In this document: positions 23,860 through 26,943 of the stretch, in pieces
Layout of the letters: the number at the start of each line of letters is the position of its first letter
Numbering within the stretch: the stretch's first letter is position 1
From: a virus
Length of the DNA stretch: 64,000 bases
Strand: one strand, 5' to 3'
Virus record (IMG/VR): IMGVR_UViG_3300009162_000001
Position numbers and translations under genes: made by a program
Notes under the pieces: model-generated
The model's database searches: none
The model's input: the letters and a program-made list of their open reading frames with translations, nothing else
What the model was told of the DNA's origin: nothing

Positions 23860-25476
23860 TTAATCTACCAGGTTCTCCCACGGCCACGCCGCGTTACGAC
23901 CGGCCTCCAGGAGGCTGATCATCGAGAACGCCTGATCAGACAGACCGCCGAAGACGAACCGGTTCGGGTTCTTCGGCTGCGAGCCGACCCGGTAGCCGAC
24001 GAGGTTCCAGACGTAGATCGGAACGTCGTCCGGCACGTAGCTCGACGGCAGTCGACCATACGTCTGCTCATCCGTCACGATGATGATGCGATCGTGCTTG
24101 GCGTACGTCGTTGTGACCGTACCCCACGTGTTCGTCCCACCACCCTGGTCGACGTAGCCGTTCTTGACGATCGGCAGCAGGCTGCCGTTCTTCGGAACGT
24201 CGACGCGGATCTCCGTGTTCGAGTAACCATAGAGATCAGCCGACTCGGCGCGAAGCGCAAGTGCCGCACCGAAGATCTTCGCCGCCTGTGCGTTGTCCAG
24301 CGACGACTTCTCGGTCAGCTTCACACCGTACATCGATCCCGACAGGTCTACGAGGATGAGAGACCTTCCCGGTAGCGGCGGAACATTAGCTAGAGATGCG
24401 TTGATAGCCTTCTCCAGCGAGTACGCCCAGCGGAGGTTTGACGCCGCATTGTAGGCGTTCCAGAAGCGGAACGGGAATTGCCGTGAGCTGGCCACGTTGG
24501 CTGGATCAGCCAGACGCTTCGCCACGGTCTCCGCCACCTCGTCTGAGACGCCAGCCTCATCGAAGTTGCGCAGGTTCCGCAGTGTGGCCATGTACGGCAT
24601 CGTCGGGATCAGTGCCTCCCACAGCAGCTTCTTGTCGATCGTGGAACCTACGAGGGAGAGCACATCCTCCCACGTCAGACCGGCCTCCTTGATGCGCTGG
24701 GTGACTTCTGACTGATGCGAGAAGTCGATCATGCTGCGAATGTCACGACGCACCGCGGCGTTCAGACGCACCATCTCGAGCAGATCCATGACCGAACCCG
24801 ATGTCTCGTGTCCGTGCATGCGATCTAGTGCGAAGCGGAACACCGCGTTCTGCTCGAACGATGATGCGGTCGGGTGCGTCAGATCCAGCACGCGACCGAA
24901 ACGGAAGTCGTGGCTGGATGTGTCGTACTTGAGTAGGCTGTACTGGGTGTACAGCCGTGATGCGGCGTCGGCGATGCCGCGCTTGATCGGCTTCGGGATG
25001 ACCTTGCCGTAGTGACCCAGCCAGTAGGCCAGCGCCTCGCCCGGCTCATCCGCCCGCTGGAGACCGATGCCGGCCACCACGCGTGCCGCACCGAGACCAC
25101 GTTCGTCGACGGCTACGATCTTCGCCTCGACCAGCGCCTTCGCAGCCTCGAGGCCGGCGACGACCGAGGCCGATCGCATGTTGGCCTTGATGCGTAGCCA
25201 CTCGACGAAGTTGACGATCCACGTCGGATCGAAGACCGCGACGGTACGCACCAGCTTGCGGAAGCGCTCGTCACGCTCGGACTTGCCCTCGTAGAAGGTG
25301 TCCTCGCCGACCATGTTCGACACGTCGAGCAGGAACAGCTCGGACTTCTCGTCGCGGACATAACCCGCGCCACCCTCGTGTGTGAAGGTGACTGGGTGAT
25401 CAGTCGTCGCCGTTCCGATCGCTGATGACTTGAGTGTCCGCGCGGTGTGCACGGACTTGACGTTGAACTTCGCCAT
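23860..25476 (-). CDS. rsr: Ro60-like ribonucleoprotein (TROVE domain + vWA/MIDAS)
   Basis: 538 aa. N-terminal TFTHEGGAGYVRD...GEDTFYEG is TROVE-like. C-terminal LILVDLSGSM MIDAS motif. Size and architecture match bacterial Rsr. Confidence 0.8.
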   Translation of the reverse strand: MAKFNVKSVHTARTLKSSAIGTATTDHPVTFTHEGGAGYVRDEKSELFLLDVSNMVGEDTFYEGKSERDERFRKLVRTVAVFDPTWIVNFVEWLRIKANMRSASVVAGLEAAKALVEAKIVAVDERGLGAARVVAGIGLQRADEPGEALAYWLGHYGKVIPKPIKRGIADAASRLYTQYSLLKYDTSSHDFRFGRVLDLTHPTASSFEQNAVFRFALDRMHGHETSGSVMDLLEMVRLNAAVRRDIRSMIDFSHQSEVTQRIKEAGLTWEDVLSLVGSTIDKKLLWEALIPTMPYMATLRNLRNFDEAGVSDEVAETVAKRLADPANVASSRQFPFRFWNAYNAASNLRWAYSLEKAINASLANVPPLPGRSLILVDLSGSMYGVKLTEKSSLDNAQAAKIFGAALALRAESADLYGYSNTEIRVDVPKNGSLLPIVKNGYVDQGGGTNTWGTVTTTYAKHDRIIIVTDEQTYGRLPSSYVPDDVPIYVWNLVGYRVGSQPKNPNRFVFGGLSDQAFSMISLLEAGRNAAWPWENLVD

Positions 25477-25572
25477 GCGGCCCAGCTCCTATCTTACTTG
25501 CGGCGTGCGCGACGCCGGAGTGTCTTCTGCCAGTTCGCACGCACACGGCGTGCGATCTTGTACATCTGCGCC

Positions 25573-25965
25573 CTACGCCTCGACGCCATCAGCCACCGAA
25601 CCCTCCAGGACCGGCATGGTCTTCGCATCGCGAAGAACCACCCAGTTGGTGGTCGGCGCGCCGTCCTGGGTCAGCCAGAGGACGAAGTCGTCCCACTCCA
25701 TGCGGTTGGGTCCCGCACCGGTGACGTACCAGAAGCCGGCGGCCTTGACGGCCGCGTAGGTGTAGGTGTTCGAACCGACGGTGCGATCGAACGCGACCAC
25801 GGTGCCGTCGCCGTAGACGTCTTGTCCGTGTGCCTCGATCGCGGCGAGCCGGTCCTCCAGCGCCTTGGCGTTGCGCCGCTCCTTGAGCAGCTCCTTGACC
25901 CTGGCATCAGTCTCTGGGTTGCTCGACCGACGCTGGAACTCCGACCAGGAGGTGTGTCCTGACAT
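25573..25965 (-). CDS. hypothetical protein
   Basis: ATG at 25965 after GGAAAGGAAAAAGATC. Lies between the Y-like RNA array and rsr. Confidence 0.55.
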   Translation of the reverse strand: MSGHTSWSEFQRRSSNPETDARVKELLKERRNAKALEDRLAAIEAHGQDVYGDGTVVAFDRTVGSNTYTYAAVKAAGFWYVTGAGPNRMEWDDFVLWLTQDGAPTTNWVVLRDAKTMPVLEGSVADGVEA

Positions 25966-26005
25966 GATCTTTTTCCTTTCCCTTCCATCACTTGACATAA
26001 AGATA

Positions 26006-26087
26006 GCCACGCCCGAGAACAAGACGCCGGACGGTATGGTTTCTATTTGCAGGAGAAGTAACCGTCAAGCTTGGCACCGGGCGTGGC
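26006..26087 (-). ncRNA. Y-RNA-like module F
   Basis: 10-bp closing helix GCCACGCCCG/CGGGCGTGGC enclosing the conserved boxes (minus strand) GGTGCC...ACTTC...TGTTCTC. Confidence 0.55.
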
Positions 26088-26098
26088 ACTAGGCTAGC

Positions 26099-26166
26099 CC
26101 TCTGAGAACAAGGTCGGTGACGCTGGCTCTTTTCCTATGAAGTAAGCGTTACCTAGGCACCAGAGG
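26099..26166 (-). ncRNA. Y-RNA-like module E (minimal)
   Basis: Closing helix CCTCTG/CAGAGG, with boxes GGTGCCTAGGT...ACTTC...GACCTTGTTCTC. Confidence 0.55.
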
Positions 26167-26189
26167 TACGTATGTAGTTGTCTTCAGAT

Positions 26190-26313
26190 GTGACTGAGAA
26201 CACGTCGATCACGGACAGTATCCACAGCATTATAGCCTTCACAGGGCTAGGCTCTTGGTATCTGAAATTTGTTCTTTGGGTTCAGAAGTACCCGTCATCC
26301 TGGCACCAGTCAC
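26190..26313 (-). ncRNA. Y-RNA-like module D
   Basis: Closing helix GTGACTG/CAGTCAC, same boxes, two internal hairpins. Confidence 0.55.
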
Positions 26314-26333
26314 ATTTTAGTTGTCATTTTCAT

Positions 26334-26474
26334 GATCGCTGAGAACATGTTGTCGTGCGTCCGGGGCTCTCTCGAGTGATCCCGATATGCGTTTTCGCAA
26401 CGCGCAAGGCAAACGACCTAGGCCGTTCTCCTCGCTCTCTGGTAGAAGTAACGCACCACGAGGCACCAGCGATC
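26334..26474 (-). ncRNA. Y-RNA-like module C
   Basis: Closing helix GATCGCTG/CAGCGATC, same boxes, distinct internal hairpins. Confidence 0.55.
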
Positions 26475-26485
26475 TTTAGTTGTGA

Positions 26486-26627
26486 TCCTCCGAGAACAAG
26501 GCGGCGAGACGATTCGTTTGGTGCTCTGCCAGTTGAGCTACAGCCCCATTGAAATGGGGCCGGCAGGACTCGAACCTGCAACCACCCTCTTAAAAGGAGA
26601 AGAAGTTCTCACCTAGGCACCGGAGGA
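26486..26627 (-). ncRNA. Y-RNA-like module B with permuted tRNA-like domain (YrlA-type)
   Basis: Closing helix TCCTCCG/CGGAGGA plus boxes. Interior on the minus strand: T-arm GCAGG-TTCGAGT-CCTGC, then a 7-bp acceptor-like stem CGGCCCC/GGGGCTG capped by an 8-nt loop, then D-arm GCTC-AACTGGCA-GAGC. Confidence 0.65.
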
Positions 26628-26651
26628 AATATGTAGTTGTTCCTTGCGGAG

Positions 26652-26723
26652 TCGGACACCGAGGAGTCGAACCTCGAACCCCCGCGTCCCAAACGCGGTG
26701 CTCTGCCATTGAGCCAGTATCCG
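26652..26723 (-). tRNA. tRNA-Pro (TGG)
   Basis: Acceptor CGGATAC/GTGTCCG, anticodon loop TT-TGG-GA, T-arm CGAGG-TTCGACT-CCTCG. Embedded between Y-like modules A and B. Confidence 0.85.
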
Positions 26724-26726
26724 TTA

Positions 26727-26869
26727 TGGTTCCTGAGAACAATGTCGATCGGACGTCTTTTAGATGCGCCTCACCAAACTGGGCTACGACCCCGATGATC
26801 GGGGCGGCAGGATTTGAACCTGCGTCCTCATCTTCCCTGAAGAAATCCCAATCTAGGCACCAGGAACCA
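26727..26869 (-). ncRNA. Y-RNA-like module A with permuted tRNA-like domain (YrlA-type)
   Basis: 9-bp closing helix TGGTTCCTG/CAGGAACCA plus boxes. Interior: T-arm GCAGG-TTCAAAT-CCTGC, capped acceptor-like stem CGCCCCG-ATCAT-CGGGGTC, D-arm-like GCC-CAGTTTGGTGA-GGC. Confidence 0.65.
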
Positions 26870-26914
26870 ACCAAGTGAATCAGTGCGAGCCTGCCGGAGC
26901 GGCTTACGAGATTA

Positions 26915-26943
26915 ACTGTACCACACTTCCTATGATCTTGTAA
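26915..26943 (-). promoter_or_regulatory. candidate promoter for the Y-like RNA/tRNA-Pro array
   Basis: Minus strand: TTACAA, 17 nt, (TGG)TACAGT. Confidence 0.4.

What the first reader, a model, noticed from the sequence alone, without database searches (positions are those of the whole stretch)
23860..26943. Phage Ro60 (Rsr) gene next to a tandem array of six Y-RNA-like modules
A 538-aa TROVE+vWA protein (Ro60/Rsr architecture) lies about 550 nt downstream, on the same strand, of a roughly 940-nt ORF-free stretch.
- That stretch resolves into six consecutive modules at 26006-26087, 26099-26166, 26190-26313, 26334-26474, 26486-26627 and 26727-26869.
- Each module is closed by a different but perfectly complementary helix: GCCACGCCCG/CGGGCGTGGC, CCTCTG/CAGAGG, GTGACTG/CAGTCAC, GATCGCTG/CAGCGATC, TCCTCCG/CGGAGGA, TGGTTCCTG/CAGGAACCA. 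This is covariation between paralogous copies.
- Immediately inside every helix are the same two non-complementary boxes on the minus strand: 5' C(T/C)G-GTGCC...ACTTC and 3' (CGAC)n-TGTTCT-C(A/G)G.
- The interiors differ widely, from 68 to 142 nt.
- An invariant bulged helix (a Ro-binding-site analogue) attached to a variable effector module is the organisation described for Y RNAs. Bacterial and mycobacteriophage rsr genes are known to sit beside Y RNAs.
- A six-member array with diversified effector domains, interleaved with a genuine tRNA-Pro, is not something I recognise as described.
Basis: partly seen in the sequence, partly recalled or inferred. Interest (0 to 1): 0.9.

Follow-up and report, generated by a model that had tools for sequence, protein, structure and literature searches.

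The report
Phage Ro60 gene with six Y RNAs
A soil-phage genome carries a Ro60 RNA-binding protein gene preceded by six different small structured "Y RNA-like" genes that share one docking site; this enlarges a known bacterial and phage system, and unannotated arrays of this kind turn out to be common next to Ro60 genes in actinobacteria and their phages.

Summary
Six modules lie on the minus strand at 26006-26869. Each has its own perfect closing helix (6-10 bp), a second covarying helix, and invariant boxes (YGGUGCC, UACUUC, UGUUCUC). The box pattern is expected 0.00 times by chance.

The 538-aa ORF is a Ro60/Rsr protein: Pfam TROVE, an intact MIDAS motif, and an AlphaFold model whose 13 best PDB matches are all Ro60.

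A covariance model built only from Ro-linked RNAs of other genomes ranks exactly these six modules as the six best hits in the 64-kb window.
- M1 and M2 are YrlA-type tRNA mimics.
- M5 and M6 are short hairpins.
- M3 and M4 carry long domains with no match outside an orthologous contig.

That contig (Ro 92% identical) keeps helices, boxes and spacers, while the M4 interior and the nearby intergenic DNA fall to 57% identity.

The novelty claim is overstated. Ro loci in actinomycete genomes carry on average 2.7 modules and up to five. Six cultured phages carry 3-5, and two uncultured contigs carry six and nine. A Y-tRNA-Y polycistron is published for Deinococcus.

Verdict: an expanded variant of a known Ro60/Y-RNA system. 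Ro binding and discrete transcripts remain untested.

The parts
26915..26944 (-). Promoter-like site (TTTACA, 18 nt, TG-TACAGT) about 45 nt upstream of module M1; candidate start of the array transcript
   Evidence: It is the only sigma-70-like match in 23300-27400, and 1.0 is expected by chance, so this is weak evidence.
26727..26869 (-). Module M1: YrlA-type Y RNA-like gene with a 9-bp closing helix, the boxes, a 7-bp P2, and a T arm, acceptor-like stem and D arm
   Evidence: Relatives-only model R2: 81.0 bits, E 6e-16. Rfam YrlA partial hit: 22.5 bits, E 0.047. Fold.
26651..26723 (-). tRNA-Pro(UGG), starting 3 nt after the end of M1; no encoded CCA
   Evidence: ARAGORN; Rfam tRNA 60.4 bits.
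26486..26627 (-). Module M2: YrlA-type Y RNA-like gene with a 7-bp acceptor-like stem
   Evidence: R2: 104.8 bits, E 4e-21. Rfam YrlA full-length match: 41 bits, E 2e-7, below the gathering score of 69. The 3' part is 90% identical in orthologue L209.
26334..26474 (-). Module M3: same docking stem, with a 3-hairpin interior of about 85 nt that has no T or D arm
   Evidence: R2: 28.1 bits, E 2e-4, through the stem and boxes only. 85% identical in L209. The interior matches nothing else that was fetched.
26190..26313 (-). Module M4: same docking stem, with an A/U-rich, fast-evolving interior
   Evidence: R2: 37.8 bits, E 1.5e-6. In L209 the closing helix and boxes are kept, P2 is replaced by a different complementary pair, and the interior is 57% identical.
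26099..26166 (-). Module M5: short hairpin-type Y RNA-like gene (68 nt)
   Evidence: R1: 40.2 bits, E 9e-7. R2: 47.6 bits. In the L209 orthologue the P2 AxC mismatch becomes a U.G pair.
26006..26087 (-). Module M6: short hairpin-type Y RNA-like gene (82 nt) with a 10-bp GC-rich closing helix followed by UAUCUUUAU; it may also act as a leaky terminator
   Evidence: R1: 35.2 bits. R2: 41.6 bits. 99% identical in L209. Terminator-like call.
26632..26640 (-). Spacer motif ACAACUACA ahead of M2. The same motif lies at 26475-26483 (ahead of M3), 26316-26324 (M4) and 26173-26181 (M5). Candidate processing signal.
   Evidence: 6 matches in the window against 0.19 expected, all on the minus strand, 4 of them in the array. 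ACAA[CT] occurs upstream of 31% of modules in relatives against 2% background. Spacers are 82-96% identical in L209.
25573..25965 (-). 130-aa ORF between the array and the Ro gene; function unknown
   Evidence: PHROG 1342 at 6e-15, no Pfam hit. A 127-aa ORF holds the same place in the two contigs whose Ro is 73-74% identical.
23860..25476 (-). Ro60/Rsr orthologue (538 aa): TROVE ring plus a vWA domain with a MIDAS motif (D377-x-S379-x-S381, T448, D469)
   Evidence: Pfam TROVE 1.5e-21. PHROG 850 at 1.8e-44 over residues 29-534. Sequence match to phiLo Ro60 (9KOP/9L5Y) at 6e-29. MIDAS residues invariant in 35 homologues. AF2 model pLDDT 86, pTM 0.84. The 13 top Foldseek PDB hits are all Ro60, TM 0.56-0.75.
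23794..23824 (-). 11-bp hairpin (GGGGAGACAUC...GAUGUCUCCCC) 36 nt after the Ro stop codon; possible terminator of the unit
   Evidence: Read from the sequence. The terminator scan did not call it because there is no U tract.

Best explanation
**What it is.** This is a phage-encoded Ro60/Y-RNA system with an expanded Y-RNA set. The minus strand carries six Y RNA-like genes with a tRNA-Pro after the first of them, followed by a 130-aa ORF and the Ro60 gene.

**Module anatomy (shown).** Each module has a closing helix P1, an invariant asymmetric internal loop (5' GGUGCC, 3' UGUUCU), a second helix P2, an invariant UACUUC box and a variable interior.
- M1 and M2 interiors are permuted tRNA mimics (T arm, acceptor-like stem, D arm), as in YrlA.
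- M5 and M6 are plain hairpins.
- M3 and M4 carry interiors seen only in this phage clade.

**Expression and processing (inferred).**
- The unit is transcribed from the promoter-like site at 26915-26944 as one precursor.
- RNase P and 3' trimming at tRNA-Pro, plus cuts near the conserved ACAACUA spacer motif, release the individual RNAs.
- This parallels the single precursors published for M. smegmatis YrlA/YrlB and for D. radiodurans Yrn2-tRNA-Asp-Yrn1.

**Function (inferred).**
- Each RNA docks on the outer face of the phage Ro60 ring through the invariant box helix.
- The different interiors gate the ring or tether it to different host partners. Host PNPase is the precedent, from Deinococcus, Salmonella and Thermus phage phiLo.
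- Together with the phage's 15 tRNAs and an RNA ligase, this redirects or protects RNA turnover during infection.
For: **Protein.**
- TROVE and PHROG profiles match.
- It aligns with phage phiLo Ro60 and keeps the MIDAS motif.
- The predicted structure matches only Ro60 structures.

**RNA family membership.**
- R2, built from 61 Ro-adjacent RNAs of other genomes, gives the six modules as the six best hits of the whole window on both strands: 104.8, 81.0, 47.6, 41.6, 37.8 and 28.1 bits. The next hit is a tRNA-tRNA junction at 24.1 bits.
- R1, built from 120 cores of relatives, finds M5 and M6 as the only significant hits.
- Rfam YrlA hits M2 at 41 bits (E 2e-7) and M1 at 22.5 bits (E 0.047).

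**Specificity of the models.**
- 447 R2 hits in 178 Ro loci are all on the Ro strand.
- There are 0 hits in 415 kb of unrelated viral DNA.

**Structure.**
- In the 6x6 P2 duplex-energy matrix of the window, the cognate pair is lowest in every row and column.
- In relatives 93% of cells pair against 69% in shuffles, with 452 double-change cells against 121.
- RNAalifold on an unbiased alignment gives P1, P2, T, AS and D helices, with compensatory changes in 22 of 31 pairs.
- G.U pairs fit RNA read from this strand.

**Selection (orthologue L209).**
- Modules are 85-99% identical and spacers 82-96%, against 57% for neighbouring intergenic DNA.
- M4 keeps P1 and the boxes and swaps P2 for a new complementary pair.

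**Literature.** Chen et al. 2014; phiLo Ro60 with Yrl1/2 and PNPase.
Against: - There are no expression data, so discrete 70-140-nt RNAs are not shown.
- The published Ro-recognition motif GNCGAAN0-1G (its 'CGAA' core) is absent; this phage has GGUGCC(U/A)N.
- Rfam YrlA scores are below the gathering threshold, and four modules have no Rfam match at all.
- The promoter call is no better than chance (1 found, 1.0 expected).
- No partner protein can be named for M3-M6.
- Part of the covariation counting used sequences selected for P1 pairing and for best-complement P2, although the MAFFT/RNAalifold result and the orthologue comparison do not share that bias.
Confidence: 0.78

Rival explanations
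1. The modules are not free small RNAs. They are repeated Ro60-binding structures in the 5' leader of the ORF130-rsr mRNA, and they give feedback control of Ro60 synthesis.
For: - They lie on the same strand directly upstream of the Ro gene, with no convincing terminator in between.
- In relatives the last module ends within about 50-100 nt of the Ro start codon.
Against: - In M. smegmatis and D. radiodurans the homologous RNAs accumulate as discrete Ro-bound species processed from a precursor.
- A conserved spacer motif and a tRNA inside the array point to processing.
- In some contigs and in phage Atuin the modules lie downstream of Ro.
- The two readings are not exclusive.
Confidence: 0.1
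2. The modules act mainly as tRNA-like or structured decoys, or as processing scaffolds of the phage tRNA programme (for example, soaking up host tRNA-targeting nucleases), independently of Ro60.
For: - M1 and M2 mimic tRNA.
- The window holds 15 genuine tRNAs and an RNA ligase.
- In several phages the Ro locus is embedded in tRNA clusters.
Against: - Four of the six modules have no tRNA-like part.
- The invariant boxes and stems are shared with RNAs next to Ro genes in 80 bacterial genomes, where the hits lie within about 1 kb upstream of Ro.
- R2 found no such module elsewhere in this window, including the 13-tRNA cluster.
Confidence: 0.07
3. The repeats act at the DNA level (protein-binding iterons, recombination sites or plain terminators), and their resemblance to Y RNAs is coincidental.
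For: They are tandem, similarly sized units in a gene-free stretch beside an HTH/MerR-type gene.
Against: - Helix sequences differ in every copy while complementarity is kept.
- G.U pairs occur, and all hits are strand-specific.
- A relatives-only covariance model scores them at E values from 2e-4 to 4e-21.
- They have no U tails.
Confidence: 0.02

Closest known systems
Mycobacterium smegmatis and Salmonella Typhimurium Rsr with YrlA and YrlB (Chen et al. 2013, 2014; Rfam RF02553)
   Same: - Ro60 orthologue with Y RNAs on the same strand within 1 kb.
- A stem formed by the 5' and 3' ends.
- A YrlA tRNA-like domain (T arm, acceptor-like stem, D arm), seen in M1 and M2.
- A YUAY/UACUUC element after the stem.
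- Hairpin-type second RNAs.
- Processing from one precursor in M. smegmatis.
   Different: - Six RNAs instead of two.
- The recognition box reads GGUGCC(U/A)N instead of GNCGAA.
- Both strands of the internal loop are conserved.
- Two modules (M3, M4) carry long interiors with no T arm.
- Rfam scores are 41 and 22.5 bits against a gathering score of 69.
- The locus is phage-borne.
Deinococcus radiodurans rsr locus (Yrn2, tRNA-Asp, Yrn1 polycistron; small RNAs a, b, d)
   Same: Several small RNAs lie upstream of rsr, with a genuine tRNA between two Y RNAs, made as one precursor.
   Different: - It is a different Y RNA lineage, with a metazoan-like binding helix.
- Only two of its five RNAs are accepted as Y RNAs.
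- It is chromosomal and stress-induced.
Thermus phage phiLo Ro60 with Yrl1 and Yrl2 (NAR 2025; PDB 9KOP, 9L5Y)
   Same: - Phage-encoded Ro60 with Y RNA-like genes upstream.
- It is the best sequence and fold match of this protein in the PDB.
- In vitro it binds its Yrls and the host PNPase.
   Different: - Two Yrls, identified by a CGAA motif that this phage lacks.
- 22-23% protein identity.
- No array, and no tRNA-like modules reported in the passages I read.
Mycobacteriophage Ro orthologues with YrlA-like RNAs (22 phages in Chen et al. 2014), and cultured actinophages annotated 'Ro-like RNA binding protein'
   Same: - Actinophage Ro60 (36-47% identical).
- By my scan, 3-5 unannotated modules of the same architecture lie beside it in BRock, VanLee, Atuin, LuckySocke, Rabbitrun and Satis.
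   Different: - Published work reports one best YrlA per phage.
- Box sequences are lineage-specific.
- This window has six modules and the two T-less long types.
Vertebrate Y RNAs (hY1, hY3, hY4, hY5; Rfam RF00019)
   Same: - Several paralogous RNAs share one Ro60-binding stem and differ in the loop.
- The 5' box GGUGCC resembles the GGUCCGA contacted by Xenopus Ro60. This is a resemblance, not a test.
   Different: - No Rfam Y_RNA match at E up to 10.
- Vertebrate Y RNAs are separate Pol III genes with no tRNA-like domain.

Membership tests
Ro60 / Rsr protein | TROVE (HEAT-repeat ring) domain | tested here: met
   Pfam PF05731 at 1.5e-21. PHROG 850 at 1.8e-44 over residues 29-534.
Ro60 / Rsr protein | C-terminal vWA domain with a MIDAS motif | tested here: met
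   - D377-L-S379-G-S381, T448 and D469 are invariant in 35 homologues.
- The motif aligns with the phiLo Ro60 MIDAS.
- The model shows an alpha/beta fold over residues 368-510, and vWA domains appear among the lower Foldseek hits.
- Pfam gave no vWA hit for this sequence itself.
Ro60 / Rsr protein | Overall Ro60 fold | tested here: met
   - AF2 model: pLDDT 86.1, pTM 0.84.
- The 13 best PDB matches are all Ro60 (phiLo, Xenopus, human, Deinococcus), with TM 0.56-0.75.
- The next hit is at E 3e-3.
YrlA (Rfam RF02553; Chen et al. 2014) | Encoded within 4 kb of the Ro60 gene on the same strand | tested here: met
   All six modules lie 530-1390 nt upstream of the Ro start on the minus strand.
YrlA (Rfam RF02553; Chen et al. 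2014) | tRNA-like domain in the order T arm, acceptor-like stem, D arm | tested here: met
   - Met for M1 and M2 only, from the Rfam and R2 alignments. M2 has a 7-bp acceptor-like stem.
- Not met for M3-M6, where the interior is skipped by the model.
YrlA (Rfam RF02553; Chen et al. 2014) | GNCGAAN0-1G motif near the 5' end | tested here: not met
   All six copies read GGUGCC followed by UA, UA, UC, AG, UA or AA. Most relatives read GGUGCG(C/A)AGG.
YrlA (Rfam RF02553; Chen et al. 2014) | Score at or above the Rfam gathering threshold (69 bits) | tested here: not met
   M2 scores 41 bits and M1 22.5 bits; the others have no hit. Phage VanLee modules also stay below it, at 47 and 33 bits.
YrlA (Rfam RF02553; Chen et al. 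2014) | YUAY element that begins the V region after the stem | tested here: met
   UUAC or GUAC (as part of UACUUC) is present in M3-M6. It is degenerate in M1 (UUUCUUC) and M2 (GAACUUC). TACTTC is the commonest form of this box in 188 modules of relatives.
Ro-linked Y RNA-like modules of Actinomycetota (operational family defined here by models R1 and R2) | P1, box loop, P2, UACUUC, variable interior, then 3' box and P1', scored by a model built without the window | tested here: met
   The six modules are the six best hits of the window, from E 4e-21 to 2e-4. E-values from the short calibration are rough.
Hairpin-type second Y RNAs (YrlB, Yrn2) | [quoted passage not shown] | tested here: inconclusive
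   M5 and M6 are single hairpins, but their loops are 14-22 nt and not pyrimidine-rich. YrlB has no Rfam model to test against.
Metazoan Y RNA (Rfam RF00019) | Match to the Y_RNA covariance model | tested here: not met
   No hit at E up to 10 in 25900-27000.
Any Y RNA | Binding by Ro60, and Ro60-dependent accumulation | not testable with these tools
   Needs RIP, EMSA or Northern blots.

The most novel reading that the evidence does not exclude
Phage Y-RNA arrays are adaptor libraries. One Ro60 ring is docked through an invariant, lineage-specific box helix. Each array member carries a different effector domain that recruits a different host partner, such as PNPase, other RNases or tRNA enzymes. 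M3 and M4 would be new, fast-evolving effector classes. Expansion to 5-9 copies in some phages would be an adaptation to host RNA-level defence or to phage tRNA maintenance.
Probability: 0.25. Interest if true: 0.75.

Novelty: new variant of a known kind. Interest (0 to 1): 0.5.

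Why it matters
**For the field.** Bacterial Y RNAs are known from very few tested cases, at most two accepted per species. What their variable domains do is an open question.

**What this locus offers.**
- It gives six natural variants on one docking stem, two of them with domains of a new type.
- The comparison set shows such arrays are the unannotated norm next to Ro60 in actinomycetes and their phages.
- Cultured phages (BRock, VanLee, Atuin, LuckySocke) carry them too, which makes "one ring, many adaptors" directly testable.

**For annotation.** Standard pipelines miss these RNAs because Rfam YrlA stays below its threshold. They sometimes call module halves as tRNAs or small CDSs.

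Tried and rejected
- **Rfam at gathering thresholds:** found only tRNAs.
- **Megablast against the phage collection:** the array and a 24-kb neighbouring stretch found nothing. Distant blastn found only tRNA-like fragments.
- **First crude P2 test (best ungapped 7-mer):** did not separate cognate from non-cognate strands because P2 is GC-rich and similar among relatives. It was replaced by duplex energies.
- **Model R1 (spliced cores):** cannot span interiors longer than about 30 nt, so it missed M1-M4. R2 solved this.
- **Exact-pattern scan of IMG/VR for GGTGCC...TACTTC...TGTTCTC:** gave 48 loci, all chance matches with 0 R2 hits.
- **DNA of the two contigs with 73-74% identical Ro (P0003, P0004):** could not be fetched.
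- **Similarity and antisense search with the module interiors:** nothing beyond chance in the window, and only the orthologue among the fetched loci.
- **ACAACUA as a promoter -10 element:** considered and rejected, because a start site 6-8 nt downstream would truncate P1.
- **ACAACUA as a general tRNA-cluster signal:** only one of 15 tRNAs has it.
- **Three reviews on Ro60 and Y RNAs:** not held in the library, so "not described" rests on Chen et al. 2014, the phiLo paper and four full-text searches.

Full report
**1. The observation**

- Each unit is closed by a different, perfectly complementary helix of 6-10 bp.
- Each carries GGTGCC immediately inside the 5' strand, (T)ACTTC 7-14 nt further on, and TGTTCTC immediately before the 3' strand.
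- The box pattern occurs 4+1 times in the window, against 0.00 expected in 100 dinucleotide-preserving shuffles. The sixth copy differs only in gap length.
- tRNA-Pro(UGG) at 26651-26723 is genuine.
- ARAGORN's 'tRNA-Lys' at 26555-26621 is the 5' half of module M2, and the Rfam tRNA model does not see it.

**2. A second helix**

- In a 6x6 matrix of duplex energies between 5' and 3' P2 segments of the six copies, the cognate pair is the most stable in every row and every column.
- So both helices covary among paralogues while the boxes stay invariant.

**3. The protein**

The 538-aa ORF (23860-25476) is a Ro60/Rsr orthologue.
- It matches Pfam TROVE at 1.5e-21 and PHROG 850 'RNA-binding protein' at 1.8e-44 over residues 29-534.
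- It matches the solved Ro60 of Thermus phage phiLo at 6e-29 in two stretches covering most of its length (residues 30-219 and 257-528).
- The MIDAS residues D377, S379, S381, T448 and D469 are invariant in 35 homologues.
- An AlphaFold2 model (pLDDT 86, pTM 0.84) has as its 13 best PDB matches only Ro60 structures from phage, frog, human and Deinococcus (TM 0.56-0.75). The next hit is at E 3e-3.
- In the phage collection its relatives are the 'Ro-like RNA binding proteins' of Streptomyces, Gordonia and Arthrobacter phages, at 36-47% identity.

**4. Relatives of the RNA modules**

I fetched Ro loci from three collections: 30 from IMG/VR, 80 from actinomycete genomes and 80 from metagenomes.
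- A simple scan (boxes plus at least 5 bp of P1) found modules of the same architecture almost only on the Ro strand, immediately beside Ro.
- In relatives, P1 positions 6 and 7 were not used for selection, yet they pair in 97% and 94% of modules, against 64% and 42% for non-cognate strands.
- A gapless alignment of 120 spliced cores, none from the window, shows 93% paired cells against 69% in shuffles. It shows 452 double-change cells against 121, and 48-102 in the slid controls. This set was partly selected for pairing, so I also used an unselected route.
- MAFFT plus RNAalifold on 61 full-length T+D modules predicts P1, P2, a T arm, an acceptor-like stem and a D arm. Compensatory changes occur in 22 of 31 pairs. 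That is the YrlA architecture of Chen et al. 2014.

**5. Independent membership test**

Two covariance models were built without any window sequence.
- R1 (cores) finds M5 (40.2 bits, E 9e-7) and M6 (35.2 bits, E 1e-5) as the only significant hits in 64 kb on both strands.
- R2 (full-length modules) returns the six modules as the six best hits: M2 104.8, M1 81.0, M5 47.6, M6 41.6, M4 37.8 and M3 28.1 bits. A tRNA-His/tRNA-Lys junction follows at 24.1 bits, a known type of false positive.
- M1 and M2 align over the whole model, including the T, AS and D helices. M3-M6 align through the stem and boxes only.
- Rfam's own YrlA model hits M2 (41 bits, E 2e-7) and M1 (22.5 bits, E 0.047), below its gathering score of 69.
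- R2 gave 85, 146 and 216 hits in the three locus sets, every one on the Ro strand. It gave none in 415 kb of unrelated viral DNA.
- E-values from these models are rough because calibration was shortened.

**6. An orthologous array**

The exact protein is on a 104-kb JGI metagenome contig. A 1.7-kb soil contig (L209), whose Ro N-terminus is 92% identical, carries the 3' part of M2, then M3, M4, M5 and M6 in the same order.

| Segment | Identity to the window |
|---|---|
| M2, 3' part | 90% |
| M3 | 85% |
| M4 | 57% |
| M5 | 85% |
| M6 | 99% |
| Spacers | 82-96% |
| Intergenic DNA after M6 | 57% |

- In M4 the closing helix and the boxes are unchanged. P2 changed from GAUGACGG/CCGUGAUC to GGUUCCGGA/UCCGUAACC, a wholesale compensatory replacement.
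- In M5 an AxC mismatch became a U.G pair.
- Small indels in the stretch covered by the mechanical 83-aa ORF (26330-26581) that overlaps M2-M3 argue against coding; L209 does not reach the 94-aa ORF.
- This is the pattern expected of structured RNAs under selection.

**7. How common are arrays?**
- Actinomycete genomes carry on average 2.7 R2 hits per Ro locus, with a maximum of five in two Micromonospora loci.
- Cultured phages, scanned with filters off: VanLee 4, BRock 4, Atuin 5, LuckySocke 5, Rabbitrun 3-4, Satis 3. None is annotated as an RNA gene.
- In Atuin, tRNA-Thr sits between two modules.
- IMG/VR contig L023 has nine consecutive modules with the same GGUGCC box. L011, L022 and L030 have five, and metagenome contig L182 has six.
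- The window's six is therefore near the top of a continuous distribution, not a singular case.

**8. What is already published**
- Ro60-linked YrlA-like RNAs were reported in 254 bacteria and 22 phages.
- Two Y RNAs each are described in Salmonella, M. smegmatis and Deinococcus.
- M. smegmatis YrlA and YrlB come from one precursor.
- Deinococcus Yrn2, tRNA-Asp and Yrn1 come from one precursor, and five small RNAs lie upstream of rsr.
- Phage phiLo Ro60 binds two upstream Yrls and the host PNPase in vitro.
- I found no paper describing arrays of more than two in phages or actinomycetes. Three reviews were not available.

**9. What differs here**
- The published recognition motif GNCGAAN0-1G (its 'CGAA' core) is replaced by GGUGCC(U/A)N. 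Box sequences are lineage-specific, while UACUUC is conserved in every lineage I inspected:

| Lineage | 5' box | 3' box |
|---|---|---|
| Most relatives | GGUGCG(C/A)AG | UGAUCUC |
| BRock | GAUGCGNAG | UUUUUCUAG |
| VanLee | G(A/C)UGCCCAG | UGACCCC |

- Both strands of the internal loop are conserved.
- M3 and M4 are long modules with no T or D arm. Their interiors match nothing else fetched except the orthologue.
- The module order is reversed. tRNA-like modules are farthest from Ro here, whereas relatives usually run hairpin, T-only, T+D, then Ro.

**10. Mechanism**

*Shown:* the gene content, the RNA architecture, covariation and purifying selection.

*Inferred:*
- One precursor starts at the promoter-like site at 26915-26944. 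That call is no better than chance.
- tRNA-Pro starts 3 nt after M1, so RNase P would cut there.
- Further cuts fall near the ACAACUA(C/A)A spacer motif. It occurs 6 times in the window against 0.19 expected, and four of those lie ahead of M2-M5. In relatives it is enriched 13-16 nt upstream of P1, at 31% against 2% background.
- All six RNAs dock on the phage Ro60 through the box helix, and their variable interiors gate or tether the ring.

*Context:* this is a large lytic-type actinophage genome with terminase, portal, DNA polymerase A, primase, ThyX, 15 tRNAs, an Rnl-type RNA ligase at 28968-29675 and an SsgA-like protein. That fits a role in RNA maintenance or turnover during infection. 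No partner can be named from sequence.

**11. Verdict**

It is an expanded, sequence-divergent variant of a known system rather than a new kind. Interest is moderate. The value lies in six natural adaptor variants on one docking stem, two new interior types, and the demonstration that unannotated multi-Y arrays are widespread and available in cultured phages.

Noticed in passing
window 26555-26621 (-); L001 3704-3775 (Gordonia phage VanLee); L243 2274-2347 (Streptomyces phage LuckySocke): tRNA finders call the 5' half of YrlA-type modules as tRNAs. ARAGORN does so for 'tRNA-Lys(ttt)' in the window. The GenBank-annotated tRNA-Arg(tct) of VanLee scores 26.9 bits on Rfam tRNA (below the gathering score of 29) and lies inside a 104-bit R2 hit. 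The annotated tRNA-Ser(gct) of LuckySocke lies inside a 64.7-bit R2 hit. These are probably mis-annotations.
   Followed up: partly
L244 1921-2278 (Gordonia phage Rabbitrun gp093, gp094): Two small annotated hypothetical CDSs overlap R2 hits (1979-2095, 2103-2177, 2207-2361) just upstream of the Ro gene. They may be RNA genes called as proteins.
   Followed up: partly
L023 3710-4919 (IMGVR_UViG_3300045049_000234): Nine consecutive modules with the same GGUGCC 5' box lie upstream of a Ro gene only 41% identical to the window's. This is the largest array seen, and ARAGORN finds no tRNA in that locus.
   Followed up: partly
window 25494-25628 (-): A 44-aa ORF (31 aa from an internal ATG with a GGAGGG upstream) encodes an extremely arginine-rich peptide (MASRRRAQMYKIARRVRANWQKTLRRRARRK). 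It overlaps the end of the 130-aa ORF and ends 17 nt before the Ro start. It has no PHROG hit, and whether it is real is unknown.
   Followed up: no
window 17331-17360 (-) and 33980-33988 (-): The spacer motif ACAACTACA occurs twice outside the array. One copy lies just upstream (about 10 nt) of tRNA-Val and is preceded by GGTTACTT, which resembles the UUACUUC box. No significant module is detected there (R2 12 bits).
   Followed up: partly
window 28968-29675 (-): An Rnl-type RNA ligase (PF09414, 1.7e-16) lies 2 kb upstream of the array on the same strand. Together with Ro60, the Y RNAs and 15 tRNAs, it may form an RNA repair or maintenance set.
   Followed up: no
window 22912-23334 (-) and 37796-38545 (-): A phage-encoded SsgA-like sporulation/cell-division protein (7e-21) and a sortase (1.4e-29). 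SsgA is also kept next to Ro in the contigs of P0002-P0004, which points to a sporulating actinomycete host.
   Followed up: no
window 35237-35944 (-) and 55398-56255 (+): Two different thymidylate synthase types occur in one phage window: ThyX (1.8e-54) and a ThyA-like protein (2.5e-18).
   Followed up: no
window 2549-10432 (-): A single 2627-aa ORF lies next to the portal-like gene (10439-12127). It was not analysed.
   Followed up: no
window 27172-27210 (-): A 17-bp hairpin followed by a U-rich tail lies immediately upstream of the HTH/MerR gene. It is the strongest terminator-like site in the region and probably insulates the HTH-array-Ro unit from upstream genes.
   Followed up: no
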